Both the position numbers and the translations under genes were made by a program. 49,271 bases of DNA, taken from NCBI GenBank assembly GCA_964607805.1, contig CAZSLF010000005.1:1-49271 (forward strand), written 5' to 3'. Source of the DNA: an uncultured Candidatus Saccharibacteria bacterium. Its GTDB lineage: Bacteria; Patescibacteriota; Minisyncoccia; Phycocordibacterales; CAIZLB01. Shown piece after piece: positions 831-19,135 of this stretch. Position 1 is the first letter of the stretch; the number at the start of each line of letters is the position of its first letter. The notes below the pieces were generated by a model. That model ran no database searches, was not told the DNA's origin, and saw only the letters and a program-made list of their open reading frames with translations.

Positions 831-879
831 AGATTTAATATTGGTTATTGATTAATTACTAATTATGAATTATGAAATA

Positions 880-1935: not shown

Positions 1936-1937
1936 AG

Positions 1938-2876: not shown

Positions 2877-2881
2877 ATTAA

Positions 2882-3718
2882 TTATCTAAACTTTGAGAGT
2901 ATCTCTTCTTTTTTCTTGCTGTAATTATCTTCTATAGAATCTAAAGTGATATTATTTTCGAACTCATAAAGTCTTGTGTATGTCATCACGCGATAGAACA
3001 TATAATTTAAAATAATAAGGATACCAAGTTTTCCATTTCTATAATTATACTTACCAAATATATATGCATATAGGAGCATAGCTGCAAATAGGCGAGTCAG
3101 ACTAAATTTCTTATTTTTTTCGAATTTTTCTTTTGCCTCAAGTTCGCTGTACTTAATATGACCACCAACAAATTTAGTTACGTTGTAGGTGCTAAAGTGT
3201 TTAAGGGCAAACTCTTCTTTGTTTGGTAATGTAATTCTCTCTTCATTTTTGCCCAAAAATTGTCCAATTCCATGGATATAGTTATTAGTAAAATCCATAT
3301 AGTCTTTATGAAAAACAAAAGGCGCATGAGATCTAAGTGCATAATTTTTAGTATTACCCCATAGATATGTATAGAGCGGGATCATGATACTTTTATATTT
3401 GTTCTCCTTTGTAATTTCAATAATTCTGTCCATGAGGGTTTGAGGAGCAATATTGTCTACGTATCCCCAATAAATCCAATCAGTATCTATGAGGCTCTTT
3501 ATAAACTCAAAATTAGTTTGAGTTTCAACGTTTATAACCTTACTCGGAGGTCGAGTATGAAAAGTAGCACCAAGAGATTCTGCAATTTTTTGTGTATTAT
3601 CTGTACTCCCACCATCTAATATATAGACTTTTCCATACCTAATAAAATTTTTGATAGCATATTCAATTCTTTTCTCTTCATTATAAGCAAACAGAATAAA
3701 TGATATATTATTATTCAT
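2882..3718 (-). CDS. GT2 family glycosyltransferase
   Basis: N-terminal AYNEE..I, LDGGSTDNT; (heptosyl)LPS beta-1,4-glucosyltransferase-like layout. Confidence 0.8.
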   Translation of the reverse strand: MNNNISFILFAYNEEKRIEYAIKNFIRYGKVYILDGGSTDNTQKIAESLGATFHTRPPSKVINVETQTNFEFIKSLIDTDWIYWGYVDNIAPQTLMDRIIEITKENKYKSIMIPLYTYLWGNTKNYALRSHAPFVFHKDYMDFTNNYIHGIGQFLGKNEERITLPNKEEFALKHFSTYNVTKFVGGHIKYSELEAKEKFEKNKKFSLTRLFAAMLLYAYIFGKYNYRNGKLGILIILNYMFYRVMTYTRLYEFENNITLDSIEDNYSKKKEEILSKFR

Positions 3719-3727
3719 TTTGATAGG

Positions 3728-4714
3728 TTAATTACTGAAAATTTTAATAGTATTCTTTTTTAAATTTTTGATCAATTTAATAAAAATATTTGGTATAAAA
3801 TATATTAGTGTAACTAACACTCTGTTAAGAGGGGACATTCTGCTTAAGTTTTTGTGAATATATTTTAGGTTTTTGATATTGCACTTTAGGTTATTGCTTT
3901 TAGCTCGCAATAGCATTATTAATATTTTTTTACTGTTTTTATTGAGTTCTGTCTCTACTCTTTTTTTGTCGAAGCCATATTTCATCATCTGCTCCAATAG
4001 TAGGTTTGAGTTAGTAAATGTAAATAGCTCAGTACCGTTTTCTGCCCAGCGACAGTCCTGACCTGTCAAAACGATTGCATCGCTAATAAAGGCCATGGGT
4101 TTTTTAGTGGCAACTAGGATTCTCAATACAGTTTCGTAATATAGCCAGTGCTGAAGAAAATCATCTTTGTTCACTTCCTTAAGCCACATAGATCTATTGA
4201 AAGCGAGAGCACTAACTCCACCTTGGCAATACCCTTTGAAATAAAAATCATTAAATTCTGAAATTTTTATTGTAGAATCGTCACTGAAATTCTTTTTTGT
4301 TTTATATGAATCACTTTCTTCGTCAAGCGGTTGAGCTTCTACACCGATAAAATCATATTTATCATCTTTAATAAGATCACACATGTGAGCGATACCTCCA
4401 TTTATAATAATATCGTCATCCCCAAGATACCAACAATACTTTCCTGATGCTTTGGTAACGATATTATAAATATTCATATCAAAACCAACATTTTTTTCAT
4501 TTCGAGCGTATGTTAGGTTTTTTATTTTTGGTACAAATGAAAGTGCAACCTCTTTAGTATTGTCTGTACTGCAATTGTCAGAGACTACAACTTCAACAAT
4601 ATTGGCCAAATTTGGATCAGCATTTAATTGAATCTCCAAGCTTTCTAAAGCTCTTTTCAGGTAGTGCGACCTATTATATGTAGGTATACAAACGCTAAGC
4701 AGGATGGGGTTCAT
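3728..4714 (-). CDS. GT2 family glycosyltransferase (RfbV/abequosyltransferase-like)
   Basis: LSVCIPTYNR, VVSDNCSTDNT, NVGFDMN, YCWYLGDDD. RfbV-like assignment is by recalled resemblance and CDP-dideoxysugar context. Confidence 0.8.
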   Translation of the reverse strand: MNPILLSVCIPTYNRSHYLKRALESLEIQLNADPNLANIVEVVVSDNCSTDNTKEVALSFVPKIKNLTYARNEKNVGFDMNIYNIVTKASGKYCWYLGDDDIIINGGIAHMCDLIKDDKYDFIGVEAQPLDEESDSYKTKKNFSDDSTIKISEFNDFYFKGYCQGGVSALAFNRSMWLKEVNKDDFLQHWLYYETVLRILVATKKPMAFISDAIVLTGQDCRWAENGTELFTFTNSNLLLEQMMKYGFDKKRVETELNKNSKKILIMLLRAKSNNLKCNIKNLKYIHKNLSRMSPLNRVLVTLIYFIPNIFIKLIKNLKKNTIKIFSN

Positions 4715-4771
4715 GTGATTTAAGGGTTGAAATTAGTGAATATGGCGATTATATCACAGGATTTACTCTTT

Positions 4772-5686
4772 TTAACCCTTAATTTTCAAGCGTTTCAAGG
4801 CATAACGACCAACAATTTTGCATAGGGGAATTAGGCCATTATATGTAAATACAATTATATACAAAGCATGAATTGCGTTTTTATAGTTTCCTTCAATAAG
4901 ATTTGCTTTAAATACCGGCCAATAGTTTGCGGGTCCTGCCTGGTGCATTCGATCAAGATAAGCTTTGCTTGATTCAGGAGTAGGGTAGCTTTCTGAAATT
5001 CTTTGATTTAGATTATCCCAATCAGCTTTAATTTGTTTAACACTTCTTTTAATTAGTGATTGAGGGCCAAGTGATGCCGCACTAATATGATAAATTACTG
5101 TTGGATGATTTATATAACCAACATCATACTTTCCAGCGATTCTAGCCCACATCTCAGCATCTGAAGAAAGTGACCAATTAATAAATCCACCTAATTTATC
5201 GTATGCACTTTTTTTGACCATCACAGCAGAGCAAACACCGTATGGACAACTAAGAGCGTCTAAGCCTGCTTTCCAAAGTTCTTTTTTATGAATTTGGTTC
5301 AAGTTTTTTGTAGACTCATCTCCATCAACAATAGAATAAGAATCAGCATGAATTAAGCCTAGATCAGGATACTTTTTTATATATTCTAAATATTTGGAAA
5401 TGGCCCCAGGCAAGAGCTCATCATCAGCATGCAAAATCATTAACCATTCTGTTTCGCAAAGTTCTATACATTTATTGAAATTTCCAGACATCCCTAGATT
5501 TGTCTCATTTACAATACATGTTATTTCAGGCTCAAATTTTCTGGCTATTTCAATAGTTTTATCGCTAGAGCAATTATCTACGACAATAATTTTATCTACT
5601 AAATTTTTTTCAATTAGGACACTCTTAATACATCTTTCAATATATTTTTCTTTATTATAAGAGGGAATTGCAATAGTTAATGACAT
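4772..5686 (-). CDS. GT2 family glycosyltransferase
   Basis: IAIPSYN, VDNCSSD, N.G...NFN.C, LHADD, SSDAEMW. Confidence 0.85.
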   Translation of the reverse strand: MSLTIAIPSYNKEKYIERCIKSVLIEKNLVDKIIVVDNCSSDKTIEIARKFEPEITCIVNETNLGMSGNFNKCIELCETEWLMILHADDELLPGAISKYLEYIKKYPDLGLIHADSYSIVDGDESTKNLNQIHKKELWKAGLDALSCPYGVCSAVMVKKSAYDKLGGFINWSLSSDAEMWARIAGKYDVGYINHPTVIYHISAASLGPQSLIKRSVKQIKADWDNLNQRISESYPTPESSKAYLDRMHQAGPANYWPVFKANLIEGNYKNAIHALYIIVFTYNGLIPLCKIVGRYALKRLKIKG

Positions 5687-5692
5687 GTTTTT

Positions 5693-7036
5693 TTATTTAT
5701 TTTTTATAAATAGGTCTTTCAACATATTTCTTGAAGATTTAAATAATAGAAGTGAAAATGTTGGTATGAAGTAAGATATTAGACTAGCGACCGCAGCGCC
5801 GGTCATGCCATATATGGGTATAAGTAGGAAATTTAATACGACATTGAATATCATACCTGAGAATATAGAAATCGTTACTATTTTTGTTAAATTCTCAACT
5901 ACAAGCAATTGATGCATCAATAAGTTAATTGCCGCACCAATATTACTCCAAACATATATTTTAAGGACTGTTACCGCACCAATAAATCCAGCACCGAATA
6001 TTATGAGTACAAAATATTTAGATAAAATCATAGTAGTTAAAGCAATCAATAAAGATACTCCAATTAGTAGAAGAAATAATTTTTTAGTACGATCTGAATA
6101 AACACTAGTTGAAATCTTTTTAGAATTAATTAAAGCAGGGAAAAGTGCTCCAACTATTATATTTGGCACAAAGTATCCTAACTCAGATATTCTTACGGCA
6201 GAATCATATAGACCAACCGATTCGGTATTTAGCATGTGTTTTATCATAACTTGATCAATACGTGCATAAAGTGCAAAAAAAGCAGAAGCGAAAATCAGTG
6301 GGAACGAATCTTTAAGCATGGATTTTGCAATTTTATAATCAAATCTCCAGTATTTAATTGTTCCATATTCTCTAATTCGTAAGTACAAAAGCCCAATACT
6401 ATAAAGTAAGGGTTCGGCAAGGATAACAAGCGCTAGATAGATAACTCCTTGACCAAACATGATGACAACAATTTTCAGAACATTTAGTATGAAAACAATT
6501 ATTAAAGATGAGATAGAAGGGAATTTGGCCTTTGCTTCAGCTTGAAATTCATAACTTAGCAATTGAAATGTTCCGAGCACATATGTCAGACTAACTATGA
6601 AAATAAGGAATAGTGATACGTCTTTTGATGACCAAATGTATGCTGATAAAACACAAATAACTATGGCCAAAATTGATGCAACAAAACGTATTGTAATAAC
6701 CGTTCCCATATAAACATCCCTTTTCTCTGGAAATTTAATTAAATCTCTATAAAGAATTTGCTCAACACCTAGTGATGCTACAAAAGCAAATAATCCTACA
6801 TAACTAATTGCATAACTTAACTGACCATAGTTAGCTGGTCCTAGATTTCTTGCCATGTAAGCTGTGGCAAGGAGAGTAATAATCATGCCTCCGATACGTC
6901 CAAAAAACATCCACCCCATATTTGCAGAATGTTTCTGTACGCTCGGATGAGTGGCTTTAAATTTAATATACGCCCAAAGCTTTTTGGGACTTGTAATTAT
7001 ATCTATAATTTGTGTATTTTGACTTTTATTGTCCAT
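5693..7036 (-). CDS. wzx: Wzx-type oligosaccharide flippase
   Basis: About 12 hydrophobic helices; ARNLGPANYG, YARIDQVMIKHML..ESVGLY.SAVRI. Confidence 0.85.
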   Translation of the reverse strand: MDNKSQNTQIIDIITSPKKLWAYIKFKATHPSVQKHSANMGWMFFGRIGGMIITLLATAYMARNLGPANYGQLSYAISYVGLFAFVASLGVEQILYRDLIKFPEKRDVYMGTVITIRFVASILAIVICVLSAYIWSSKDVSLFLIFIVSLTYVLGTFQLLSYEFQAEAKAKFPSISSLIIVFILNVLKIVVIMFGQGVIYLALVILAEPLLYSIGLLYLRIREYGTIKYWRFDYKIAKSMLKDSFPLIFASAFFALYARIDQVMIKHMLNTESVGLYDSAVRISELGYFVPNIIVGALFPALINSKKISTSVYSDRTKKLFLLLIGVSLLIALTTMILSKYFVLIIFGAGFIGAVTVLKIYVWSNIGAAINLLMHQLLVVENLTKIVTISIFSGMIFNVVLNFLLIPIYGMTGAAVASLISYFIPTFSLLLFKSSRNMLKDLFIKNK

Positions 7037-7038
7037 GC

Positions 7039-7923
7039 CTAATTTGAAAGAGTTTTCTTTATACCGTCTTCAAGTGATATTTTCTGTTTCCAGCCAGGAA
7101 CTTTTCTGCCTTTTGTCCATGGTAACATGACTTCACGAAATCTATATTCTCTTGCACCCCATTCTATATTTAGTTTTTGCCCTGATACTTTTTCAAATAA
7201 TAAGGCTAATTTCTTGAGACTAAGTCTTTTATTTGATTGCACTGCAAATGATTTGTTTGCGAACTTACGATTTTTATCTTTAGAAATTACAGATATAAGC
7301 TGTATATAGGCGTCAATTACATTTTCAATATAACTTATATCTATAATTTGCTCTCCTGGAGACATGCCTAATAATTCTTTTGATTTACTAATCTTTGACC
7401 ATAAAGCAAAGACCTTCGATCTAGTATCGTTTGGTCCGAAAGTGTCGTTTAACTTTATTGTTACAAAATTAATATTTGTCGTTTCTGTATAAAATTGTGC
7501 CAAAACCTCAAATGCCTGTTTACTTGCGGCATACAAATTTACAGGTGAATATTCCTTGTCCTTATAGTGTTGCCAAAAAGTTCCAGTATTAACAAACCAT
7601 TTAACATTTGCAGAAGATGCTGCTTCTAAAATCTCTGCACTGAATTGAATATTTGTTTGAATTAACTTTGAAATATCCTCTGGTTTATGTGCGGCAAGGA
7701 AAAGGGAAGCCAGGTGAACTACACCTTCTATTTTTTCTTTTAAGATGAAAGTCTTTAGGTTTTCGATATTTCCATCAAAAGTATAAATTGATACTTTTTT
7801 ATTGATCTTCGAAGTATCGGTGCTTGGCCGAACAACTGTATAAACCTTATGCTTATCTTTGAGAAGCTTATCAATTAGGTGAGAACCGATAAAACCAGTG
7901 GCTCCTGTTATGAGTATTTTCAT
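7039..7923 (-). CDS. NAD(P)-dependent 4-ketoreductase, CDP-abequose/CDP-paratose synthase-like (RfbJ/RfbS)
   Basis: TGATGFIG, FVNTGTFWQ, YAASK, TIKLNDTFGPND, GEQIIDISYI. Confidence 0.75.
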   Translation of the reverse strand: MKILITGATGFIGSHLIDKLLKDKHKVYTVVRPSTDTSKINKKVSIYTFDGNIENLKTFILKEKIEGVVHLASLFLAAHKPEDISKLIQTNIQFSAEILEAASSANVKWFVNTGTFWQHYKDKEYSPVNLYAASKQAFEVLAQFYTETTNINFVTIKLNDTFGPNDTRSKVFALWSKISKSKELLGMSPGEQIIDISYIENVIDAYIQLISVISKDKNRKFANKSFAVQSNKRLSLKKLALLFEKVSGQKLNIEWGAREYRFREVMLPWTKGRKVPGWKQKISLEDGIKKTLSN

Positions 7924-8468
7924 CCTCTAAATATAAATGGAGATTGGAAATTCTCCAAGGTCTCAAAATTTAGGTCACGTGTTGAGATAATTGGGTTTTC
8001 AATACTCCAATCCATACCAAATGAGTCGAATTTAATCCCTGTATCGCAAGTTTTATCATATGTAGCAGTCTGCAAATATACAGTACAAGTATTGTCTTCA
8101 AGCGAAACAAATCCGTGAACACATCCCGGTGGCATATAGATACTTCTTCTATTGTCGGCAGATAATTCTGTAGAAATAAACTGTCCGTAAGTGGGCGAGC
8201 CAACTCTAATATCAAGTACAACATCTATGACCTTACCGGAAGTTACATAGACTAGCTTAGAATGATCCTTTGGTGGCACCTGAATATGCATCCCTCTTAT
8301 TACATTTTTATTCGAGATTGAATAAAAACTCTCAGTGAAATCAACACTTAGATTGTGCTCAGCAAAAGCTTCTTTATTAAATGTCTTAACAAAAATACCT
8401 CTATCATCTTGAAAGACATTTGTTTCAAGAATAAAGACTCCTTCTATTTTTGTTGGAATAATGTTCAT
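7920..8468 (-). CDS. rfbC: RfbC/RmlC-family NDP-4-keto-sugar 3,5- (or 5-) epimerase
   Basis: FQDDRGIF, S.KNVIRGMH.Q, KLVYVTSG...DVVLDIR.GSPTYGQ, PPGCVHGF, IISTRD. Confidence 0.85.
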   Translation of the reverse strand: MNIIPTKIEGVFILETNVFQDDRGIFVKTFNKEAFAEHNLSVDFTESFYSISNKNVIRGMHIQVPPKDHSKLVYVTSGKVIDVVLDIRVGSPTYGQFISTELSADNRRSIYMPPGCVHGFVSLEDNTCTVYLQTATYDKTCDTGIKFDSFGMDWSIENPIISTRDLNFETLENFQSPFIFRG

Positions 8469-8520
8469 GTGAGATTTTACAGACTATTTTAGCTGTAATG
8501 AAGATTCTTACTCAGCTTAA

Positions 8521-9750
8521 TTATTTTACCTTAACTTTTGACAAAAATTCTACGAACTTGTTTTTAAGGTATTCAATTTGATCTTTGTTTAGACCGTGAT
8601 GGCAGGCAACAACAAAACCACCTTTCATAATCTGCTCAGTATTTTTATAATCTTGAATAATTTGTCTATTCTCAATTCCTTTGTAACCAGGTTGCTTTAA
8701 GATATTTCCAGTGAAGATTGGTCTAGTCTGAATATTATTGTTTTCTAGGAATTCGATAAGGTCCATTCGAGCGAAAGGAGCATCTGGTCTGATAATAAGA
8801 GGGAAGGCTAACCAGGCAGTAGTAGTCTTTGGTGTTTGATTAGGAAGAATGAAATATTTTTCGTATGGACCAAAGAATTTAAGTAGGTTAGCAAAATTCT
8901 TTTTTCTTTCACTTAAGAATTTTGGTAATTTTTTGCATTGAGCAAGAGCGAAAGCTGATGAAATCTCAAGTGGTAAGAAGTTATATCCAATTTCACTAAA
9001 GATAAATTTATTATCATATGGGATTCCAGCTAGTTTTGTACTGAATCGATTTTTCAAAAGTTCAGAATTTGCCTTTTCACCGAAAAGAGAAGAGCTTCGG
9101 CCCCAGCCTCTAAGAACTACTAGTTTATCAACCCATTTTGGATCGTTTACCATGATCATGCCTCCACCACCTGCACCGTTGATAATATGAGAACCATAGA
9201 AACTTGTTACTGAAATATCAGAATAAACACCAGTAGGTTTACCATCATATGTTCCACCAAGAGTGTCACATGAGTCTTCAATAAAATAAATCTTATGTTT
9301 TTTTGCTAGAGCGGATAGAGCCTTCATGTTTGGAATATTTCCCATTAGAGAAGGGATCATTAGAGCTTTTGTTTTTGGGGTAATAGCCTTTTCAACTTGT
9401 TCTAGATTTATAAGGTATGTATCTGGATCAACATCGACAAAAACTGGCACAAGACCTTTTTGAATAATTGGAGCAACTACAGTTGCAAAAGTTAGAATTG
9501 GTGTAATTACTTCAGATCCCTTAGGAAGATTTAATATTTCAAAAGCAAGTAGGTTTGCTGATGAGCCTGAATTAACCATAACTCCATATTTCTTTCCAAA
9601 CATCTTGGCAATTTTAGCTTCAAACTCTTTTGTTTTATCGCCAAGAGCTGTATTTCCTTTAAGAATTTTTACTACAGCATCGATTTCTTCTTGACCATGA
9701 ACTGAGAAACCATAGGGAACTCGCATCTTTGAACTAGTTGATTTAGACAT
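8521..9750 (-). CDS. PLP-dependent NDP-4-keto-6-deoxyhexose 3-dehydratase (RfbH/DdhC- and ColD-like)
   Basis: VNSGSSANL, IEDSCDTLG, SFYGSH (His at the aminotransferase Lys position), GYN..PLE. Start placed at 9750 (MSKSTSSKMRVPYG) because the longer ORF runs through the divergent promoter. Confidence 0.82.
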   Translation of the reverse strand: MSKSTSSKMRVPYGFSVHGQEEIDAVVKILKGNTALGDKTKEFEAKIAKMFGKKYGVMVNSGSSANLLAFEILNLPKGSEVITPILTFATVVAPIIQKGLVPVFVDVDPDTYLINLEQVEKAITPKTKALMIPSLMGNIPNMKALSALAKKHKIYFIEDSCDTLGGTYDGKPTGVYSDISVTSFYGSHIINGAGGGGMIMVNDPKWVDKLVVLRGWGRSSSLFGEKANSELLKNRFSTKLAGIPYDNKFIFSEIGYNFLPLEISSAFALAQCKKLPKFLSERKKNFANLLKFFGPYEKYFILPNQTPKTTTAWLAFPLIIRPDAPFARMDLIEFLENNNIQTRPIFTGNILKQPGYKGIENRQIIQDYKNTEQIMKGGFVVACHHGLNKDQIEYLKNKFVEFLSKVKVK

Positions 9751-9776
9751 AATATTTATATTGTTTTTATGGGGAG

Positions 9777-9785
9777 ATAGTAGCA
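9777..9785 (-). promoter_or_regulatory. Extended -10 promoter for the leftward glycan operon
   Basis: Minus strand TG-C-TACTAT, 26 nt upstream of the ATG at 9750. Confidence 0.5.
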
Positions 9786-9794
9786 CGATATTTG

Positions 9795-9823
9795 TTGACA
9801 TGGAAGCCCTAAAGCAGTAGTGT
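9795..9823 (+). promoter_or_regulatory. sigma70-type promoter for the rightward glycan operon
   Basis: TTGACA (9795-9800), 17 nt, TAGTGT (9818-9823). Confidence 0.6.
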
Positions 9824-9853
9824 ATTTGGTACATACACCCTGTGTATCTATCT

Positions 9854-10936
9854 ATGGAAATTAAAAACTTTTATAAAAATAAAAAAGTTCTTGTTACAGG
9901 CCATACTGGGTTCAAAGGCAGTTGGCTTTCGCAGGTATTGCTAAATTTCGGTGCAGATGTTGTAGGTGTGTCACTTGCCCCTGACACAAAACCTAATTTA
10001 TACGAGGTTTTACAACAAGAGGGTAAGGTTAAAAGTTATTATTTAGATATAGAAGACTTTGAAGCTCTTAAAAAAGTTTTTATCGAAGAAAAACCTGAAA
10101 TTGTATTTCATATGGCCGCTCAGGCTATTGTTAGAACAGGATATCTTAATCCTCTTAGGACTTTTTCATCAAACGCTATGGGTACAGCCCATGTTCTTGA
10201 AGCAATTAGAGAGGTTGATAGTGTAAAGTCTGCAGTAATTATCACTACAGATAAAGTTTATGAAAACAAAGAGTGGCATCATGCATATAGAGAAAACGAT
10301 TCTCTTGGAGGATATGATCCCTATAGTGCAAGTAAGGCAGCTGCAGATATAATAACTAATTCTTATATTCAGTCATATTTTAATATTAAGCACTATAAAG
10401 AAAAGCATAACTCTCTTGTCGCTATCGCTAGAGCTGGAAACGTAATAGGAGGTGGTGACTGGGCTGAATATAGACTTATTCCAGATATTATCCGGGCTGT
10501 ATATGAAAAGAAAGAAAAGATAGAGAGTAGAAATCCTCAAGCTATAAGACCTTGGCAGCATGTTCTCGAGCCTCTTTCAGGTTATATGACCCTTGCACAG
10601 GCTCTTTACGAAGGAAGACCAGAAGTATCTGGTGCATGGAATTTTGGTCCTAACAACGAAAGTTTTGTTACAGTTGAGACTTTGATCAATCATGCGATTG
10701 AAATTCTAGGAGCAGGAACACATGATTCAAATCCTGATACTTCTCATATGCATGAGGCAAATCTATTAAAGTTAGATATTAATAAGGCGCATGCAATTTT
10801 GTCTTGGAAGCCGAGACTTCATTTACAAGAAAATTTGAAAATGACTTTTGATTGGTATCGTAACTACTATGAAAAAAGCGCAGATATTGTAGAATTCACT
10901 AATAGTCAGATTGAAGAATATTTTAATATAAAATAA
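9854..10936 (+). CDS. rfbG: CDP-glucose 4,6-dehydratase
   Basis: VLVTGHTGFKGSWL, HMAAQA, TTDKVYEN, GGYDPYSASK, RAGNVIGGGDW, RPWQHVLEPL. Start placed at MEIK. Confidence 0.95.
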   Translation: MEIKNFYKNKKVLVTGHTGFKGSWLSQVLLNFGADVVGVSLAPDTKPNLYEVLQQEGKVKSYYLDIEDFEALKKVFIEEKPEIVFHMAAQAIVRTGYLNPLRTFSSNAMGTAHVLEAIREVDSVKSAVIITTDKVYENKEWHHAYRENDSLGGYDPYSASKAAADIITNSYIQSYFNIKHYKEKHNSLVAIARAGNVIGGGDWAEYRLIPDIIRAVYEKKEKIESRNPQAIRPWQHVLEPLSGYMTLAQALYEGRPEVSGAWNFGPNNESFVTVETLINHAIEILGAGTHDSNPDTSHMHEANLLKLDINKAHAILSWKPRLHLQENLKMTFDWYRNYYEKSADIVEFTNSQIEEYFNIK

Positions 10937-10945
10937 TAAATACTT

Positions 10946-11716
10946 ATGAAAGTTGTAATTTTAGCCGGAGGATTAGGAACAAGAATAAGTGAGGAGACAA
11001 ATGTTAGGCCTAAACCTATGGTTGAAATTGGTGGAAAACCTATCTTGTGGCATATCATGAAGACATATTCCCATTATGGTTTTAACGAATTTATTATTTG
11101 TATTGGTTATAAAGGAAACTATATTAAAGAATGGTTCAACAATTACTATTTAAATCATAGTGATGTAACTTTTGATTTTGAAAAAAATAATATCGAATAC
11201 CATAAACCTGCAGGTGAAAAATGGAAAGTAACTCTAGTTGATACGGGAGATTCAACTATGACAGGTGGACGACTTAAGAGAATTCAAGAATATATTGGCA
11301 ATGAGCCTTTCATGATGACCTATGGAGACGGTGTAGGTAATATACAAATTGATAAGTTAGTTGAATTTCATAAGGAGCACGATGCATTAGTTACTGTAAC
11401 TGCGGTAACTCCTGAAGGTAGATTCGGTGTTGTAAATATCCACGAGAGTAAAACAGTTACATCGTTTAGCGAAAAAACTGATACAAATAAAGTAAGCGGA
11501 GGATATTTTGTATTAGAACCAGAAATATTTGATTATTTACAAGATGGAGACGCTACAGTTTTTGAAAAGGCACCACTTGAGAAGATAACAGACGAAGGAA
11601 AATTAAAAGCATTCGTACACGATGGTTTCTGGAAGCCTATGGATACTTTGCCAGATAAAATTCGTCTTGAGGCTATGTGGTCAAAAGGCGATGCTCCTTG
11701 GAAGATTTGGAATTAG
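10946..11716 (+). CDS. rfbF: Glucose-1-phosphate cytidylyltransferase
   Basis: ILAGGLGTRISEET..RPKPMVEIGGKPILWHIMK, VDTG.STMTGGRL, TYGDGV, GFW.PMDT. Confidence 0.95.
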   Translation: MKVVILAGGLGTRISEETNVRPKPMVEIGGKPILWHIMKTYSHYGFNEFIICIGYKGNYIKEWFNNYYLNHSDVTFDFEKNNIEYHKPAGEKWKVTLVDTGDSTMTGGRLKRIQEYIGNEPFMMTYGDGVGNIQIDKLVEFHKEHDALVTVTAVTPEGRFGVVNIHESKTVTSFSEKTDTNKVSGGYFVLEPEIFDYLQDGDATVFEKAPLEKITDEGKLKAFVHDGFWKPMDTLPDKIRLEAMWSKGDAPWKIWN

Positions 11717-11833: not shown

Positions 11834-12601
11834 ATGATAAAGAAAATATTAATAGAAGAAAAGGATTTGAATACATTGTCTTCAAGAATACCCTCAATTC
11901 AGAAGCCTTCTTTTAAATATGATTATAAAAATGTCGTGGTGAATAAACCATGGGGTTATGAATATTTAATGTTTGAAAATGAACAAGTGGCTGTATGGGT
12001 TCTTTTCATGAAAAAAGGATCTAAGACATCTATGCATTGTCATCCTCAAAAGAATACTTCACTTCTAGTATTAGATGGACGAGCTAAGACTTCTTCATTA
12101 AATGACGAATTTGAACTTAGTTTTCTAGACAGCATGATTATTTCTAAAGGTGTATTTCATTCTACTTCAACAGAGTGTGAAGACGGTGCGGTAATCATGG
12201 AAATTGAAACTCCTCCCGATAAAACCGACCTAGTACGCCTTAAAGATGAGTATGGAAGAGAGAATAAGGGGTACGAAGGTGAGAATAATATCTCTAGAGA
12301 TCTAGAACAATATGAGCATCATAGTTTTCACGACGATATTGAGAATTATAGAAAAATCACTGAAAAGGCTTTAAAAAACAGCAAGGTCTTATTACATTCA
12401 AATGAAAATTGGGATAAACTATATAGTGAAATCAAGGACAAGAAGAACTTCATTGTAAGCTTTTTGGATACATTTATTTTGGACCAAAATGACAATATGG
12501 TATTGGAAATAGGTGAAGTTTGTGACGGTGAATGGCTAGTAAAAGAATTTGAAAAGCTCAAAGCAAGTAAAGAAATCTTTAATCTTTTGATCATCAATTA
12601 A
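11834..12601 (+). CDS. Cupin-domain protein (mannose-6-phosphate isomerase type II-like cupin plus an unknown C-terminal part)
   Basis: KPWGYEY, TSMHCHPQK, KGVFHST and EIETP form a metal-binding cupin signature. Confidence 0.7.
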   Translation: MIKKILIEEKDLNTLSSRIPSIQKPSFKYDYKNVVVNKPWGYEYLMFENEQVAVWVLFMKKGSKTSMHCHPQKNTSLLVLDGRAKTSSLNDEFELSFLDSMIISKGVFHSTSTECEDGAVIMEIETPPDKTDLVRLKDEYGRENKGYEGENNISRDLEQYEHHSFHDDIENYRKITEKALKNSKVLLHSNENWDKLYSEIKDKKNFIVSFLDTFILDQNDNMVLEIGEVCDGEWLVKEFEKLKASKEIFNLLIIN

Positions 12602-12604
12602 TAA

Positions 12605-14398
12605 ATGGCAAAAATAAAAGTCTCAGATCTAATAGTTAATTACATTGTTTCACTTGGTGTTAAGCATGTTTTTATTGTCTCAGGAGGAAGCAATGTGAAT
12701 ATTCTCGATTCAATAGATAAAAATCCAAATTTAAAATATATTTGTAATCACAATGAACAGGCATCAGCCATGGCTGCTGAGGCATATGGAAGAGTTGGAG
12801 GAAATATTGGTGTCTGTGTTACAACCATGGGTCCTGCAGCTACGAATACTTTGACTGGAGTTATGGGCGCTTGGACAGATTCAATCGCAACCCTGTATCT
12901 ATGTGGGCAGGTAAAAAGAGAGGTTATGATTACTGGTACGCACTTGAGACAGCTTGGAGTGCAGGAAATAAATATTACAGATATAGCGAGACCAATTACA
13001 AAGTATTGTGAAGTTGTTCAGGATCCGCTTCAAATTTTATACCATCTAAAGAAAGCTGTTTATATTGCTAAATCAGGCAGGCCAGGACCAGTTCTTCTTG
13101 ATATTCCTGCAGATATTCAATCTATGGAAATTGAAGAAAGTGAATTTTTAGATTTTGATCCAGTAAAAGATGGTTTAGAGCCAGCGCCAAATACTTTATT
13201 AAAAGACCAGGTTGCAGAATTATCAAAATGGCTTAAGGAATCAAAGAGACCCGTTATTTTTGCCGGACATGGAATTCGGCTTTCAAAGTCAGAAAAAGAA
13301 TTTATAGAATTAGCGGAAAAATTGCAGATTCCAGTTCTTACAACTATGTCTGCAAATGATTTGATAGAGAGCGACCATCCTTTATTTGTCGGACGGCCTG
13401 GAGTATTTGGAGATAGAGCAGGAAATTTTGCAATCCAAAATTCTGATTTAATGATAAGTATCGGTGCTAGACACCATCTTTGGAATATTGGTTATAACTA
13501 TGCTTCATTTGCCAAATCTGCCAAAAAGGTTGTAGTTGATATCGATATAAATGAATTAAATAAAAAAACAGTTGTTCCTGATTTAGCGATTAATGCTAAT
13601 GCTAAAGATTTTATTGAAGAGTTGAAAAGTCATGCAACTGAATTAGTTGAAATTAAACCATGGTTAGAAAAGTGCAGAGGATGGAAAGAAAAGTATCCTG
13701 TTGTATCACCTGAATATAAAGAGGAAAAAAACTTTGTAAATTCATACTATTTTACAGACCGTTTATCAAAAAAGCTGGAAGAAAATGAAATTATAATGAC
13801 GGGTGTAGGAACCGCATTTACAGGAACGCTTCAATCAATAAAAATAAAAAAAGGCCAAAGATTACACTGTAGTATAGGCTGCGCATCTATGGGATATGAT
13901 TTACCTTCTGCAATTGGAGGATGGTTTTCTACTGGTAAAAATAGAATTATCCTAATAACTGGCGACGGGGGAATTATGTTCAACCTACAGGAATTGCAAA
14001 CAATTGTTCATCATAAAATTCCAGTCAAAATATTTTTGTTGAATAACAATGGCTACTTGGCGATTAAAAACACCCAAAATTCATTTTTCCAAGGAAATTT
14101 GGCTGGTGTAGATGGAAAATCTGGAGTTAGTCTGCCGTCATTTGAAAAGATTGCAAATGCTTTTGGTTTAGGATATGTCAGTATGAAGACTAATGATGAT
14201 ATTGATCAGAAAATAGAAGAAGCTTTAAATTATGATGGTCCGGTGATTTGTGATATCAATATGTCACCTACTCAGCCTTTATTGCCAAAAGTATACTCAG
14301 AGAAACTTCCCGATGGTACTATGATTAGTAAACCGCTTGAGGACATGTTCCCGTTCATAGATAGAGATGAATTTACTAAGAATATGACAAATGATTAA
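12605..14398 (+). CDS. ThDP-dependent enzyme of the acetolactate synthase superfamily (YerE-like carboligase candidate)
   Basis: NHNEQASAMAAEAY, TMGPAATN, GRPGPV.LDIP.D, ITGDGGIMFNLQEL...NNNGY (GDG-N ThDP motif). Confidence 0.9.
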   Translation: MAKIKVSDLIVNYIVSLGVKHVFIVSGGSNVNILDSIDKNPNLKYICNHNEQASAMAAEAYGRVGGNIGVCVTTMGPAATNTLTGVMGAWTDSIATLYLCGQVKREVMITGTHLRQLGVQEINITDIARPITKYCEVVQDPLQILYHLKKAVYIAKSGRPGPVLLDIPADIQSMEIEESEFLDFDPVKDGLEPAPNTLLKDQVAELSKWLKESKRPVIFAGHGIRLSKSEKEFIELAEKLQIPVLTTMSANDLIESDHPLFVGRPGVFGDRAGNFAIQNSDLMISIGARHHLWNIGYNYASFAKSAKKVVVDIDINELNKKTVVPDLAINANAKDFIEELKSHATELVEIKPWLEKCRGWKEKYPVVSPEYKEEKNFVNSYYFTDRLSKKLEENEIIMTGVGTAFTGTLQSIKIKKGQRLHCSIGCASMGYDLPSAIGGWFSTGKNRIILITGDGGIMFNLQELQTIVHHKIPVKIFLLNNNGYLAIKNTQNSFFQGNLAGVDGKSGVSLPSFEKIANAFGLGYVSMKTNDDIDQKIEEALNYDGPVICDINMSPTQPLLPKVYSEKLPDGTMISKPLEDMFPFIDRDEFTKNMTND

Positions 14399-14431: not shown

Positions 14432-14965
14432 ATGGAAAAAACAAAAAAAGTAGTGATTATTACAGCCGAAGCCTTTGAAGATGAAGAAGTTATGTATCCA
14501 GTTATGCGACTTCATGAAGAAGGTTTTACTGTTGATATTGCCACAAAAGATGCAAAGCTCGTTGTCGGAAGATTGAATTTTCCTCTTGAATTATTGGTTA
14601 GATATTACGGTACTTTGGTAGATGCTAAAAAACTTAATCCCGATGACTATGACATGGTCTTATTACCAGGTGGCTTTGAGGCACCTGATCGTGTAAGACA
14701 AATACCAGAAGTATTGGATTTTGTTAGGAAGATGCATAGTTCAAATAAGCTTGTTGCCGCTTTCTGTCACGGACCTTGGATCCTTATTTCAGCTGGATTG
14801 CTTAAAGGAAAAAAAGCTACAGGTTATATCGGTATTAAAGATGATATTCAAAACGCAGGCGCTGAATTTATCGATCAACCTGTAGTTGAAGATGGAAATA
14901 TAATTACATCAAGACACCCTAGAGATGTAGGACACTTTATGAAGGCTTTGCTTGCGAGATTTTAA
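14432..14965 (+). CDS. PfpI/DJ-1 family protein (protease I/glyoxalase III/deglycase)
   Basis: FEDEE, LLPGG, AAFCHGPW nucleophile elbow, VVEDGNIITSRHP.D. Confidence 0.9.
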   Translation: MEKTKKVVIITAEAFEDEEVMYPVMRLHEEGFTVDIATKDAKLVVGRLNFPLELLVRYYGTLVDAKKLNPDDYDMVLLPGGFEAPDRVRQIPEVLDFVRKMHSSNKLVAAFCHGPWILISAGLLKGKKATGYIGIKDDIQNAGAEFIDQPVVEDGNIITSRHPRDVGHFMKALLARF

Positions 14966-15005
14966 TCTAGCCTTTGATTAATTAAGTTTTTAACTTATTC
15001 AATTT

Positions 15006-15641: not shown

Positions 15642-15646
15642 CATCG

Positions 15647-16063: not shown

Positions 16064-17062
16064 ATGAAAAAAATCGCAATTTTAGGAGCAACAGGATATA
16101 TAGGAAAGTCTCTTGTAAATGAATTTTTGCAAGCGAATTCCGGAGAAGGTTATCAGCTGAACCAAATTTATCTATATGTTAGATCGAAAGAAAAGCTTGA
16201 GAAGTTTATAGAAAGTTTAAAGTTGAAATCTTCAGGAGGTTATAATATTTCGGACATAGAAAACTTCGGTGAAGAGAATTACGATGTTGTTATCAATTGT
16301 GTAGGTATAAGTAGTCCTGCAACATTGAAAGAGAAACCATTTGAAATAATTAAACTCACAGAGGAGTTTGATAATAAGATTCTGAATTTCTTAGACAATC
16401 ATAAAGAAACTATATATATAAATTTGAGTAGCGGTGCGGCTTATGGTCAAAACGCTACGCGACCTGTAAGTGAAGAGACTCCGTCACTTATCGATATTAA
16501 TAATATTAAGAATACGAATTTATATTCTATTGCTAAGATTTATACAGAGGCTAAGCATCGAGCTTTAAATCACTTGCGAATTATCGATTTAAGAGTTTTT
16601 GCTTTCTTTAGTCAATTTGCAGATTTGGATGGAGGATTTCTAATGTCTGAAATTGCTAAGTGTCTTGTTGAAGATAAAGTATTTAAAACAACGTCTACTG
16701 ATATTGTCAGGGATTTTATTGGCCCAGAAGACTTATATAATATTATTCAATGTTTAATTGATGGTGAAAATTCTGAAGGGGTTGAAAAAGTGCATGAAAA
16801 TATAAAAAATGATGTATTCGATGTTGTATCAAAAGCTCTAGTTACAAAATTGGAATTGATAGATTTTTTAAAGACTAAATATAATTTGAAAGTTGAGATT
16901 GCGGAGGCTGCCAAGTCATCTTTGCCGCAAAACCAGAGCGCAACAGGGGACAAAAACTCATATTATTCACAAAGTGAAAAACTAAAAAGAATTGGATTTG
17001 TGCCGAAATATAGTTCGATGGAATGTATTGATAGGGAGCTGAAGAGGCTTCTCACAAGATAG
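16064..17062 (+). CDS. NAD-dependent epimerase/dehydratase/reductase (extended SDR)
   Basis: GATGYIG, LSSGAAYG, YSIAK, RDFIGPED. Confidence 0.85.
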   Translation: MKKIAILGATGYIGKSLVNEFLQANSGEGYQLNQIYLYVRSKEKLEKFIESLKLKSSGGYNISDIENFGEENYDVVINCVGISSPATLKEKPFEIIKLTEEFDNKILNFLDNHKETIYINLSSGAAYGQNATRPVSEETPSLIDINNIKNTNLYSIAKIYTEAKHRALNHLRIIDLRVFAFFSQFADLDGGFLMSEIAKCLVEDKVFKTTSTDIVRDFIGPEDLYNIIQCLIDGENSEGVEKVHENIKNDVFDVVSKALVTKLELIDFLKTKYNLKVEIAEAAKSSLPQNQSATGDKNSYYSQSEKLKRIGFVPKYSSMECIDRELKRLLTR

Positions 17063-17985: not shown

Positions 17986-19050
17986 ATGAAAGTTGCACTT
18001 ATCACAGGGATTACAGGACAGGATGGAAGTTATTTAGCAGAATTATTGCTTGAAAAAGGATATGAGGTTCATGGAATAAAACGCCGAACTTCTATTATTG
18101 CTACAGATCGTGTAGATCATTTATATGATCATGAGGAGTATAAAAAAAGATTCCATCTTCACTATGGAGATTTGGCTGATCCGCTTAATCTTGTTCATAT
18201 AATTTCTAAAGTTAAGCCAGATGAGATTTATAATCTTGGTGCTATGTCTCATGTAAAAGTGAGTTTTGAAAAATCTGATTATACTTCTGATATAGATGCG
18301 CTTGGACCTTTGCGAATTCTTGAGGCGCTACGGATTTTGAATATGACAAATGTGAAGTTTTATCAAGCGTCTTCTTCTGAATTATATGGAAAAGTGCAGG
18401 AAATTCCTCAAACAGAGAAAACACCATTTTATCCTAGATCTCCATATGGCTGCGCGAAACTTTTCGGTTATTGGATAACAGTCAATTTTAGAGAGTCATA
18501 TAACATGTTTGCTTGTAATGGAATTTTATTTAATCATGAATCGCCACGAAGAGGGGAAACTTTCGTTACAAGAAAAATTACAAGAGGTGTAGCAAAAATT
18601 GCTCATAAAATTGATTCAGTATTGCTCCTTGGAAACTTAGATGCAAAAAGAGATTGGGGTCATGCAAAGGATTATGTGGAAGCTATGTGGCTTATTTTGC
18701 AACAAGAAGTTCCTGAAGATTTTGTTATAGCAACAGGTGAGACTACGACAGTTAGAGATTTTGCATTAAAGGCTTTTGCGCGAGCAGGCATACAGATTGA
18801 ATTTTCAGGCGAAGGTGTAGATGAAGTAGGGAAAGTTATTTCTTCTAAGCATGATCATCTGGCAGCTGGAACAATTGTTGTTAAGGTTGATGAAAAATAT
18901 TTTCGTCCAGCTGAGGTGGATCTTTTGTTGGGAGATCCGACGAAGGCAAGAACTGTTCTTGGTTGGAAGCCAAAATATACTTTGGATATGATGATTGACG
19001 AGATGGTAGATGCTGATATGAAGGAAATTGAGAATAATTCTAAGAAATAG
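17986..19050 (+). CDS. gmd: GDP-mannose 4,6-dehydratase
   Basis: [67 protein letters not shown]. Confidence 0.97.
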
Positions 19051-19135
19051 CTATTTTTTGAGTCAGAAAGGCGGTTTTTAGGATACCTTGGACACATATG
19101 CAAAATAGCCCTAAAAGCGCTATACTTCTTGGCAT

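What the first reader, a model, noticed from the sequence alone, without database searches (positions are those of the whole stretch)
8521..9750. RfbH-like 3-dehydratase without the Fe-S cysteine loop and with no E3 reductase: possible reductase-independent route to CDP-3,6-dideoxyhexoses
Seen: SFYGSH keeps the dehydratase His, but the next segment reads GWGRSSSLFGEKANSELLKNRF with no Cys. Only three Cys remain in the protein, and no ferredoxin-NAD reductase (DdhD/AscD/RfbI) gene is in the locus. Known (recalled): E1/RfbH carries WGRDCYCAPGCDNTC, which binds a [2Fe-2S] cluster, and needs E3; ColD does 3-deoxygenation on a GDP-sugar with PLP and glutamate, with no Fe-S and no partner. The downstream GYNFLPLEISSA...KKLPKF segment looks ColD-like. 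Inference: a ColD-mechanism enzyme working on the CDP-sugar made by the adjacent RfbG/RfbF, which would suit an organism with little Fe-S machinery.
Basis: partly seen in the sequence, partly recalled or inferred. Interest (0 to 1): 0.75.

Follow-up and report, generated by a model that had tools for sequence, protein, structure and literature searches.

The report
Iron-sulfur-free CDP-sugar 3-dehydratase
A tiny uncultured bacterium makes rare 3,6-dideoxy surface sugars with a relative of the textbook E1 enzyme that has lost its iron-sulfur site and has no reductase partner. It probably uses an amino acid as reductant instead, and this untested variant is widespread, reaching culturable Sinorhizobium and Roseibium.

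Summary
Gene 8521..9750 (-) encodes a 409-aa DegT-fold protein whose closest solved relative is Yersinia E1. It keeps the dehydratase His (SFYGSH, H188) but lacks three of E1's four [2Fe-2S] cysteines. No E3 exists in the window, in the genome, or in 49 genomes with orthologs.

It sits in a well-supported clade of 39 cluster representatives, all Cys-less, inside the E1 lineage and separate from ColD. No cysteine column is invariant in that clade. The residue before the catalytic His is Ser, as in ColD; Fe-S E1-type proteins have Ala.

CDP-glucose 4,6-dehydratase lies within 4 kb in 34 of 49 ortholog loci. Clade members are fused to RmlC-like epimerases and 4-reductases, so the product keeps its 4-keto group.

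Best reading (about 0.6): a ColD-type, amino-acid-driven, reductase-free 3-deoxygenation of CDP-4-keto-6-deoxyglucose. This is not shown biochemically. The host genome lacks SufBD, IscU, radical-SAM and ferredoxin signatures. However, culturable Sinorhizobium, Ensifer and Roseibium carry the same variant.

I class it as a new variant of a known kind. I found no paper describing it.

The parts
8521..9750 (-). Cys-less E1-lineage NDP-4-keto-6-deoxyhexose 3-dehydratase (409 aa). Catalytic H188 with S187; conserved loop 216-247 replaces the [2Fe-2S] loop.
   Evidence: PDB E1 3bcx 254 bits and ColD 191 bits. NCBIfam RfbH 353.6 bits, below the 423 cut-off. Cys census, tree, AF2 model and Foldseek.
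9751..9841 (.). 91-bp divergent intergenic region between the 3-dehydratase and rfbG. Presumed divergent promoters; not tested.
   Evidence: Sequence read. Start at 9750 inferred from homologue N-termini.
9842..10936 (+). CDP-glucose 4,6-dehydratase (RfbG/DdhB); makes the proposed substrate.
   Evidence: TIGR02622 474.3 bits, cut-off 278. Within 4 kb of the orthologue in 34 of 49 loci.
10946..11716 (+). Glucose-1-phosphate cytidylyltransferase (RfbF/DdhA).
   Evidence: TIGR02623 385.7 bits, cut-off 300. Within 4 kb in 33 of 49 loci.
7920..8468 (-). RmlC-fold epimerase directly downstream of the dehydratase; AscE-like 5-epimerase candidate.
   Evidence: PF00908 188.8 bits. [quoted passage not shown] Fused to clade members P0128, P0142 and P0160.
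7039..7923 (-). Extended SDR whose start overlaps the epimerase stop by 4 nt; candidate 4-ketoreductase (AscF-like).
   Evidence: PF01370 115 bits. Co-occurs with the RmlC-like gene after the dehydratase in about 14-16 of 49 loci. SDR/RmlD-like domains are fused to clade members.
11834..14398 (+). Cupin (11834..12601) plus ThDP enzyme of acetolactate-synthase fold (12605..14398). Candidate second branch (C-4 acyl branching, YerE-like) using the 4-keto-3,6-dideoxy product.
   Evidence: PF02776/PF00205/PF02775. A ThDP gene lies within 10 kb of the orthologue in 27 of 49 loci. Similarity to YerE was not tested here.
16064..17062 (+). SDR conserved next to the ThDP gene in related loci; candidate branch-ketone reductase.
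   Evidence: PF01370 61.5 bits. Within 10 kb in 18 of 49 loci, typically in the order SDR-ThDP-RfbF-RfbG.
17986..19050 (+). GDP-mannose 4,6-dehydratase (Gmd). Source of the rival GDP substrate; probably belongs to a separate GDP-sugar branch.
   Evidence: TIGR01472 553.6 bits, cut-off 415. In related loci it is never within 1.5 kb of the dehydratase and is within 10 kb in only 9 of 49.

Best explanation
The gene encodes a PMP/PLP-dependent nucleotide-sugar 3-dehydratase of the E1 (RfbH/DdhC/AscC) lineage that carries no iron-sulfur cluster and has no E3 partner. RfbF and RfbG, divergently transcribed next to it, make CDP-4-keto-6-deoxy-D-glucose. The enzyme forms the PMP-sugar ketimine. H188 abstracts the C4' proton and the 3-OH leaves, giving the delta-3,4-glucoseen intermediate. 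These steps are inferred from the conserved His and the family chemistry. E1 then reduces that intermediate with two electrons delivered through Fe-S clusters. Here the adduct is proposed to be hydrolysed as in ColD, releasing PLP, ammonia and CDP-4-keto-3,6-dideoxyglucose, and an amino acid (probably L-glutamate) regenerates PMP. This step is inferred, not shown. The product keeps its 4-keto group. It feeds the co-transcribed RmlC-like epimerase and SDR reductase (an ascarylose-like CDP-3,6-dideoxy-L-hexose) and probably the cupin/ThDP/SDR branch.
For: - Closest solved relatives by sequence are E1 (254 bits) and ColD (191 bits). By predicted fold they score TM 0.82 and 0.79.
- The catalytic His is invariant. 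Three of the four E1 cluster ligands are absent.
- No Cys column is invariant across the 39-member clade (C161 in 29 of 39, C383 in 26 of 39). Orthologues have 1-4 Cys.
- The clade is well supported (SH-aLRT 100), nested in the E1 superclade and separate from ColD.
- The residue before the His is Ser in 34 of 39 clade members and 16 of 16 ColD-type proteins, but Ala in 49 of 58 Fe-S-type proteins. ColD S187 is one of the two residues that define its dehydratase chemistry (3gr9 title; bioRxiv 10.1101/2021.09.04.459008).
- An E3 gene lies within 10 kb in 0 of 49 Cys-less loci versus 23 of 80 Fe-S-type loci.
- No full-length E3-like protein occurs in any of the 49 whole genomes (best 54 bits, FNR part only). 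Of 49 Fe-S-type genomes without an adjacent E3, 32 have one elsewhere.
- CDP-specific RfbG lies within 1.5 kb in 26 and within 4 kb in 34 of 49 loci. Co-directional operons of dehydratase-RfbF-RfbG-RmlC-like-SDR exist, and their RfbF/RfbG pass the CDP-specific cut-offs.
- Clade members are naturally fused to RmlC-like and RmlD-like/SDR domains, which need a 4-keto substrate.
- No redox protein is among the conserved neighbours.
- The host genome shows no SufBD, NifU_N, radical SAM, Fer2 or 4Fe-4S ferredoxin motif.
Against: - No member of the clade has been assayed, and I found no paper on one.
- Many Fe-S-type E1 loci also lack an adjacent E3 (57 of 80), so local absence alone is weak evidence.
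- The whole-genome contrast is confounded by phylogeny and genome size (CPR versus Proteobacteria).
- The Ser/Ala correlation could not be shown to be phylogenetically independent (5 usable pairs, p about 0.4).
- The clade shares 9 consensus positions with the Fe-S group against ColD, and only 2 with ColD against the Fe-S group. A ColD-like mechanism would therefore be convergent or ancestral.
- SpnQ shows that a His-type enzyme can transaminate when it lacks a reductase (review PMC8987622).
- One close clade member (P0124) is fused to a dTDP-glucose 4,6-dehydratase, so nucleotide specificity is not uniform across the clade.
- The genome is only 79% complete.
Confidence: 0.6

Rival explanations
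1. It is an ordinary ColD-function enzyme acting on GDP-4-keto-6-deoxymannose made by the Gmd encoded 8 kb away (17986..19050), in a colitose-like pathway.
For: A bona fide gmd is in the same locus. Gmd lies within 10 kb in 9 of 49 related loci. The enzyme lacks Fe-S like ColD and shares ColD's Ser-His dyad.
Against: Gmd is never within 1.5 kb, whereas RfbG is in 26 of 49 loci and sits in co-directional operons. The protein is outside the ColD clade. It has E1-type Asp162 where ColD-type has Glu, and WGR where ColD-type has HGW. The downstream epimerase is closest to the CDP-sugar epimerase WbcA. No ColC-type bifunctional synthase was identified next to it.
Confidence: 0.06
2. It is a 4-aminotransferase in practice (like SpnQ without its reductase) and makes CDP-4-amino-4,6-dideoxyglucose.
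For: SpnQ transaminates with PLP and glutamate when no reductase is present (PMC8987622). The fold is that of sugar aminotransferases.
Against: The catalytic Lys is replaced by His in all 139 relatives in the tree set apart from the H188N ColD reference, a hallmark of dehydratases. The conserved partners are an RmlC-like epimerase, 4-ketoreductase-type SDRs and a ThDP carboligase. All of these need a 4-keto sugar, and some are fused to clade members. No N-acyl or N-methyl transferase is conserved beside it.
Confidence: 0.1
3. It still works reductively like E1 but takes electrons from an unrecognised partner or a non-Cys metal site. One candidate is the membrane protein with an FNR-like domain. 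Another is hydride from the adjacent or fused SDR.
For: The protein is phylogenetically an E1. An FNR-like domain exists in the genome. 19 of 49 related genomes have weak FNR-module hits. SDRs are fused to clade members. C383-H384-H385 are fairly conserved.
Against: There is no conserved Cys set and no Fer2 domain. FNR-module hits are absent from 30 of 49 genomes. No redox protein is a conserved neighbour. Fe-S-type E1s are fused to SDRs just as often, so the fusions do not indicate a replacement reductase. The host appears to lack Fe-S assembly altogether.
Confidence: 0.12
4. It is a decayed or non-catalytic E1 relic.
For: It has lost a cofactor site and scores below the RfbH family cut-off.
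Against: Orthologues are 70-87% identical across many CPR lineages. The catalytic His is invariant and the replacement loop is nearly invariant. Operon structure is conserved.
Confidence: 0.02

Closest known systems
E1 / RfbH / DdhC / AscC, CDP-6-deoxy-L-threo-D-glycero-4-hexulose 3-dehydrase of Yersinia and Salmonella (PDB 3BCX)
   Same: Best sequence and fold match (254 bits, TM 0.82). Same lineage in the tree. Catalytic His in the same column, Asp162 (E1 D194) and Tyr185 (E1 Y217) kept, WGR motif kept. Same genomic partners RfbF and RfbG, hence probably the same CDP substrate and the same product.
   Different: Three of the four [2Fe-2S] cysteines are missing and no Cys is conserved clade-wide. 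There is no E3 anywhere. Ser replaces Ala before the His, Leu replaces E1 F345, and Ile/Val replaces the second His. The score is below NCBIfam's RfbH cut-off.
ColD (WbdK), GDP-4-keto-6-deoxy-D-mannose 3-dehydratase of E. coli O55, and the C. jejuni HS:5/HS:11 heptose C3-dehydratases
   Same: Cluster-free His-type dehydratase with a Ser-His dyad and no reductase partner. The proposed mechanism (hydrolysis of the enamine adduct, PMP regenerated from L-glutamate) is ColD's.
   Different: Separate clade. ColD-type has Glu at the D194 position and HGW in place of WGR. The genomic context is CDP-glucose, not GDP-mannose or GDP-heptose. An RmlC-like epimerase plus a separate reductase follows, instead of ColC.
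SpnQ, dTDP-4-keto-2,6-dideoxyglucose 3-dehydrase of Saccharopolyspora spinosa
   Same: His-type DegT-fold 3-dehydratase with no dedicated E3 gene (PMC8987622).
   Different: SpnQ binds a [2Fe-2S] cluster and uses general ferredoxin/flavodoxin reductases. It acts on a dTDP-2,6-dideoxy sugar. None of those features is seen here.
Ascarylose pathway (AscA-F) and yersiniose A pathway (DdhA-D, YerE, YerF) of Yersinia pseudotuberculosis
   Same: The gene set matches: cytidylyltransferase, 4,6-dehydratase, 3-dehydratase, epimerase plus 4-reductase, and separately a ThDP enzyme plus reductase.
   Different: The E3 (AscD/DdhD) step is missing. The identities of the final sugars are not established, and YerE similarity was not tested here.

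Membership tests
E1 / RfbH / DdhC / AscC (Fe-S, PMP-dependent CDP-hexose 3-dehydrase) | DegT/aspartate-aminotransferase fold with His in place of the PLP lysine | tested here: met
   PF01041 264.9 bits. H188 aligns with E1 H220. Foldseek TM 0.82 to 3bcx.
E1 / RfbH / DdhC / AscC (Fe-S, PMP-dependent CDP-hexose 3-dehydrase) | [2Fe-2S] ligands C193, C251, C253 and C261 (C-X57-C-X1-C-X7-C; numbering recalled from Agnihotri et al. 2004 and consistent with the 3bcx alignment) | tested here: not met
   Only the C193 equivalent is present. The other three align to non-Cys residues: S/G/L by HMMER, S/L/L by MAFFT. No invariant Cys in the clade.
E1 / RfbH / DdhC / AscC (Fe-S, PMP-dependent CDP-hexose 3-dehydrase) | Dedicated E3 reductase (DdhD/AscD/RfbI: Fer2 + FNR) | tested here: not met
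   None in the window or genome. None in 49 orthologue-bearing genomes.
E1 / RfbH / DdhC / AscC (Fe-S, PMP-dependent CDP-hexose 3-dehydrase) | Score above NCBIfam NF011936 (RfbH) curated cut-off | tested here: not met
   353.6 bits versus a cut-off of 423. PGAP names the Roseibium orthologue only 'DegT/DnrJ/EryC1/StrS family aminotransferase'.
E1 / RfbH / DdhC / AscC (Fe-S, PMP-dependent CDP-hexose 3-dehydrase) | CDP-4-keto-6-deoxyglucose as substrate | tested here: inconclusive
   Context only: RfbF/RfbG adjacency in 33-34 of 49 loci. No assay.
ColD (cluster-free GDP-4-keto-6-deoxymannose 3-dehydratase) | No Fe-S site; Ser-His dyad (S187-H188) | tested here: met
   S187-H188 present. Ser in 34 of 39 clade members and 16 of 16 ColD-type.
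ColD (cluster-free GDP-4-keto-6-deoxymannose 3-dehydratase) | Membership of the ColD clade (HGW loop, Glu at the E1-D194 position) | tested here: not met
   The ColD-type clade of 17 rows (SH-aLRT 99) excludes it. It has WGR and Asp162.
ColD (cluster-free GDP-4-keto-6-deoxymannose 3-dehydratase) | GDP-mannose pathway context (gmd adjacent, ColC) | tested here: not met
   gmd is 8 kb away here. In related loci it is within 1.5 kb in 0 of 49.
ColD (cluster-free GDP-4-keto-6-deoxymannose 3-dehydratase) | PMP regenerated from L-glutamate; product release by hydrolysis with ammonia | not testable with these tools
   Needs an enzyme assay.
SpnQ-type dTDP-2,6-dideoxyhexose 3-dehydrase | [2Fe-2S] motif | tested here: not met
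SpnQ-type dTDP-2,6-dideoxyhexose 3-dehydrase | dTDP pathway context with a 2,3-dehydratase | tested here: inconclusive
   A phmmer search seeded with the window's RfbG/RfbF found no RmlB- or RmlA-like ORF in the genome. That search is not a specific test for them. A 2,3-dehydratase was not searched for.
DegT/DnrJ/EryC1/StrS sugar aminotransferases | Schiff-base Lys in the SxxxxK motif | tested here: not met
   His at that column. The Lys-type outgroup separates at SH-aLRT 99.

The most novel reading that the evidence does not exclude
The Cys-less E1-lineage proteins are a third, uncharacterised mechanistic class of nucleotide-sugar 3-dehydratase. They would be E1 by descent and CDP (in some members dTDP) by substrate, but ColD-like in chemistry, with an amino acid rather than NADH/E3/Fe-S as the reductant. 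They would then be a major, perhaps the commonest, natural route to CDP-3,6-dideoxy and branched sugars, and the only one open to bacteria such as this one that seem to have no Fe-S assembly system. The highly conserved loop WGRxSSL[FY]GEKANSELLKNRF would have taken over the position of the cluster loop as an active-site lid.
Probability: 0.5. Interest if true: 0.72.

Novelty: new variant of a known kind. Interest (0 to 1): 0.6.

Why it matters
The CDP-3,6-dideoxyhexose pathway (paratose, abequose, tyvelose, ascarylose, yersiniose) is taught as strictly dependent on the E1/E3 pair of iron-sulfur proteins. If this clade works without them, three things follow.

- The E1/E3 system is one solution among at least two. 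Automated labels such as 'CDP-6-deoxy-D-xylo-4-hexulose-3-dehydrase' or 'reductase, E1' hide a mechanistic split.
- An oxygen-tolerant, single-protein catalyst for CDP-4-keto-3,6-dideoxyglucose would become available. A recent attempt to reconstitute E1/E3 for sugar-nucleotide synthesis failed, probably because of dysfunctional clusters (PMC7851689).
- It shows how ultra-small bacteria that appear to lack Fe-S assembly can still build elaborate dideoxy and branched surface glycans.

Orthologues in Sinorhizobium meliloti pSymB, Ensifer adhaerens and Roseibium plasmids make the question directly testable in culturable, genetically tractable strains.

Tried and rejected
- I expected Fe-S-type E1s to be fused to E3 and Cys-less ones not to be. 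Both types are fused only to SDR/RmlD-like or RmlC-like domains or carry inteins, so fusions say nothing about the reductase.
- A phylogenetically independent test of Ser(-1) against cluster loss was underpowered: 5 usable pairs, median p about 0.4.
- The 'ColD-like' GYNF..PLE..KKLP segment is shared with the Fe-S-type consensus, so I rejected it as a discriminator.
- A 2Cys-2His site (C161, C383, H384, H385) was considered and rejected because C161 and C383 are missing in 10 and 13 of the 39 clade members.
- The search for related loci with a diverse Cys-less alignment failed for lack of a conserved stretch. With the single protein P0145 it gave only 4 loci.
- PDB entry 9wvy ('putative NDP-4-keto-6-deoxyglucose-3-dehydratase', 122 bits) could not be inspected residue by residue, so its cluster status is unknown.
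- Five full-text literature searches found no description of a cluster-free CDP- or dTDP-hexose 3-dehydratase. The library lacks most subscription journals, so this absence is not proof.
- The AF2 monomer model gives no information on the key loop (pLDDT below 50 for residues 217-255).
Full report
**What is there.** The finding's coordinates (8521..9750, minus strand) hold a real gene. The open frame runs to 9834. Homologues are 406-409 aa and start at the Met encoded at 9750, which leaves a 91-bp divergent intergenic region before rfbG.

The 409-aa protein is a DegT/DnrJ/EryC1/StrS-fold enzyme (PF01041, 264.9 bits). Its best solved relatives are Yersinia E1 (3bcx, 254 bits) and then ColD (191 bits). 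NCBIfam's RfbH model scores 353.6 bits, below its 423-bit cut-off. An AlphaFold2 model (pLDDT 83.7, pTM 0.84) matches E1 at TM 0.82 and ColD at 0.79. The model is unreliable exactly over residues 217-255, the segment that replaces the cluster loop.

- SFYGSH is residues 183-188, and H188 sits in the column of E1 H220 and ColD H188.
- E1's cluster ligands C251, C253 and C261 align to non-Cys residues in the segment WGRSSSLFGEKANSELLKNRF. Only the C193 equivalent (C161) survives.
- The protein has three Cys: 161, 272 and 383.
- In 119 orthologues at 73% identity or more, total Cys is 1-4. The loop is nearly invariant (W216, G217, R218, S220, S221, G224, E225, S229, E230, N234, R235, F236), so it is under selection and not decaying.

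**Family picture.** A search of 1.84 billion cluster representatives gave 1163 relatives at E ≤ 1e-30. The best 150 are all His-type except one with Arg (P0238) and one fragment. They fall into three loop types:
- Fe-S type: WGRDCWC...C with SFYPAHH.
- ColD type: HGW.R with SFYFSHH.
- Cys-less type: WGR...E..I..RF with SFY[GA]SH.

In a 144-row maximum-likelihood tree rooted on Lys-type aminotransferases, the ColD type is a separate clade (SH-aLRT 99). The window's protein lies in a clade of 39 representatives, all Cys-less (SH-aLRT 100), nested in the E1 superclade (117 rows, SH-aLRT 99). Well-supported branches (SH-aLRT ≥95) force at least 5 changes of the Cys label, so the cluster has been gained or lost repeatedly.

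No Cys column is invariant in the 39-member clade (C161 in 29 of 39, C383 in 26 of 39). This rules out a clade-wide alternative cluster site.

The active-site signature is a mosaic:
- E1's Asp194 and Tyr217 are kept.
- The residue before the catalytic His is Ser, as in ColD (34 of 39 here, 16 of 16 ColD type), against Ala in 49 of 58 Fe-S type.
- E1 F345 becomes Leu (31 of 39).
- The second His becomes Ile or Val.

ColD S187 together with H188 is the pair whose mutation turns ColD into an aminotransferase (3gr9 title). The Ser/cluster correlation is strong in raw counts. Cluster-free proteins have Ser 61 and Ala 12; cluster types have Ala 49 and Ser 5. It could not be shown to be phylogenetically independent.

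**No reductase.**
- I took an E3 (DdhD, 329 aa, Fer2 + FNR) from the Yersinia aleksiciae locus L062 as seed. A jackhmmer search found E3 within 10 kb in 0 of 49 loci holding orthologues of the window's gene, against 23 of 80 Fe-S-type E1 loci.
- None of the 49 orthologue-bearing whole genomes has a full-length match. The best hit is 54 bits and covers only the FNR module.
- Of 49 Fe-S-type genomes without an adjacent E3, 32 have a full-length Fer2-FNR protein elsewhere.
- The window's own genome has no Fer2 domain. Its single NAD_binding_1 hit is the C-terminus of a 606-aa membrane protein.
- Clustering all ORFs within 5 kb of the gene in 45 loci found only sugar-pathway enzymes, glycosyltransferases, a flippase, a C-methyltransferase and a Nudix protein. 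There was no redox partner.
- The contrast with Proteobacteria is confounded by lineage and genome size. Many Fe-S E1 loci also lack a local E3. So this evidence supports the reading but does not decide it.

The substrate could therefore be GDP-4-keto-6-deoxymannose, which would make this an ordinary ColD function. Comparative context argues against that.
- RfbG lies within 1.5 kb of the orthologue in 26 of 49 loci and within 4 kb in 34. Gmd lies within 1.5 kb in 0 and within 10 kb in 9.
- Six loci have the co-directional order dehydratase-RfbF-RfbG-RmlC-like-SDR. The RfbF and RfbG tested from two of them (L019, L030) pass the CDP-specific NCBIfam cut-offs.
- One close clade member (P0124, 52% identical) is fused to a dTDP-glucose 4,6-dehydratase. 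The clade as a whole is therefore not restricted to CDP.

**What the product must be.** Clade members occur as natural fusions with RmlC-like epimerases, RmlD-like/SDR reductases, or both; P0160 is epimerase-reductase-dehydratase. In the window the gene is followed by an RmlC-like epimerase and an SDR whose start overlaps the epimerase stop. Across the divergent promoter lie rfbG, rfbF, a cupin, a ThDP enzyme and further on another SDR. All of these partners need a 4-keto sugar. This argues against a pure aminotransferase role, the side activity SpnQ shows without a reductase.

**Mechanism proposed.** The steps to the delta-3,4-glucoseen-PMP adduct follow from the conserved His and family chemistry (review PMC8987622). 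The enzyme has no cluster and no reductase. The only known way to finish the reaction is then ColD's: hydrolysis of the adduct, loss of ammonia, and regeneration of PMP from an amino acid. That step is inferred. I put about 0.6 on this reading for a CDP substrate. The rivals are an unknown reductive partner (0.12), an aminotransferase (0.10), a GDP substrate (0.06) and a relic (0.02).

**Host and distribution.** The 840-kb genome (79% complete) belongs to the candidate phyla radiation, judging by its relatives. Searches of it found none of the following:
- SufBD or NifU_N/IscU;
- a radical-SAM domain or a Fer2 domain;
- an ORF with the 4Fe-4S motif CxxCxxCxxxC[PGA];
- an ORF over 200 aa with CxxxCxxC.

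SufBD and radical SAM are present in all 14 control genomes. SufBD is present in only 6 of the 49 orthologue-bearing genomes.

The variant is not a CPR speciality, however. Culturable alphaproteobacteria carry relatives at 50-54% identity: Roseibium algicola and R. aggregatum plasmids, Sinorhizobium meliloti pSymB, and Ensifer adhaerens. In the two loci inspected (Roseibium algicola and S. meliloti) the relatives have the same loop (WGRSSSLFVESEAIENRFN) and the same SFYGSH. They sit in rfbF-rfbG-DegT operons with no E3 within 9 kb.

**Novelty.** The 2022 review lists only three characterised 3-dehydratases: E1 (CDP, Fe-S plus E3), ColD (GDP, cluster-free) and SpnQ (dTDP, Fe-S). The 2023 C. jejuni enzymes are ColD-type and act on GDP-heptose. 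I found no paper describing a cluster-free E1-lineage enzyme, but the searchable library is incomplete. Earlier AI notes from this scan reached the same reading in other CPR genomes. They are not independent evidence.

- the gmd rival and its rejection by context;
- the whole-genome E3 contrast;
- the ColD-like Ser signature;
- the WbcA-like epimerase;
- the apparent absence of Fe-S machinery in the host;
- the culturable carriers.

I class this as a new variant of a known kind, interest 0.6.

Noticed in passing
whole genome G000 (30 contigs, 840,773 bp): The genome (79% complete) shows no SufBD, no NifU_N/IscU, no radical-SAM domain, no Fer2 domain, no ORF with CxxCxxCxxxC[PGA], and no ORF over 200 aa with CxxxCxxC. 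Two class-V aminotransferase (cysteine-desulfurase-like) genes remain. SufBD is found in only 6 of 49 related genomes. The organism may be essentially free of Fe-S proteins.
   Followed up: partly
window 17986-21427 (+): A bona fide GDP-mannose 4,6-dehydratase (553.6 bits) is followed by a 763-aa protein with an O-antigen-ligase (Wzy_C) domain and C-terminal TPR repeats. This looks like a second, GDP-based sugar branch in the same glycan locus.
   Followed up: partly
proteins P0182, P0186, P0215, P0218, P0251 (Fe-S type); P0130, P0147 (Cys-less); P0201: Several relatives carry inteins. In five Fe-S-type proteins the intein sits inside the cluster-binding loop, right after WGR.C. The Cys that follows the insert lies in the cluster loop (C.C...C) and may be a cluster ligand, so splicing would be needed to form the [2Fe-2S] site.
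   Followed up: no
genome contig C1:94908-96713 (+): A 606-aa protein has a long polytopic N-terminal part and a C-terminal FNR-like FAD/NAD-binding module but no ferredoxin domain. It is the only NAD_binding_1 hit in the genome. Similar 430-530-aa frames occur in related CPR genomes.
   Followed up: partly
protein P0124 (795 aa, 52% identical): This is a natural fusion of a Cys-less 3-dehydratase with a dTDP-glucose 4,6-dehydratase (TIGR01181, 388 bits against a cut-off of 365). It implies a dTDP-linked, cluster-free 3-deoxygenation in some members.
   Followed up: partly
L139 (Roseibium algicola plasmid NZ_CP019631.1) 7017-13600; L138 (Sinorhizobium meliloti pSymB NZ_CP019586.1) 7038-11083: Culturable alphaproteobacteria carry rfbF-rfbG-Cys-less dehydratase operons. 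In Roseibium a class I SAM methyltransferase, an NAD(P) oxidoreductase and two glycosyltransferases follow. PGAP names the dehydratase only as a generic DegT-family aminotransferase.
   Followed up: partly
window 14432-16012 (+): A DJ-1/PfpI-family protein (158 bits), a HAD-IA phosphatase-like protein and a 121-aa ORF with no family sit between the ThDP enzyme and its presumed partner SDR, in the middle of the sugar operon. In most related loci the SDR follows the ThDP gene more closely.
   Followed up: no
window 8521-9750, residues 217-255 of the protein: The most conserved segment of the orthologue alignment (the loop that replaces the Fe-S loop) is the only internal part of the AlphaFold2 monomer model with pLDDT below 50. 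That would fit a lid that orders only in the dimer or on substrate binding.
   Followed up: no
window 1-7036 (-): Upstream on the minus strand lies the rest of the glycan locus: a Wzx-like 447-aa flippase and several glycosyltransferase-like ORFs, which recur near the dehydratase in related loci, plus a methyltransferase-like ORF at the window's edge. These assignments are read from sequence only and were not family-tested.
   Followed up: no
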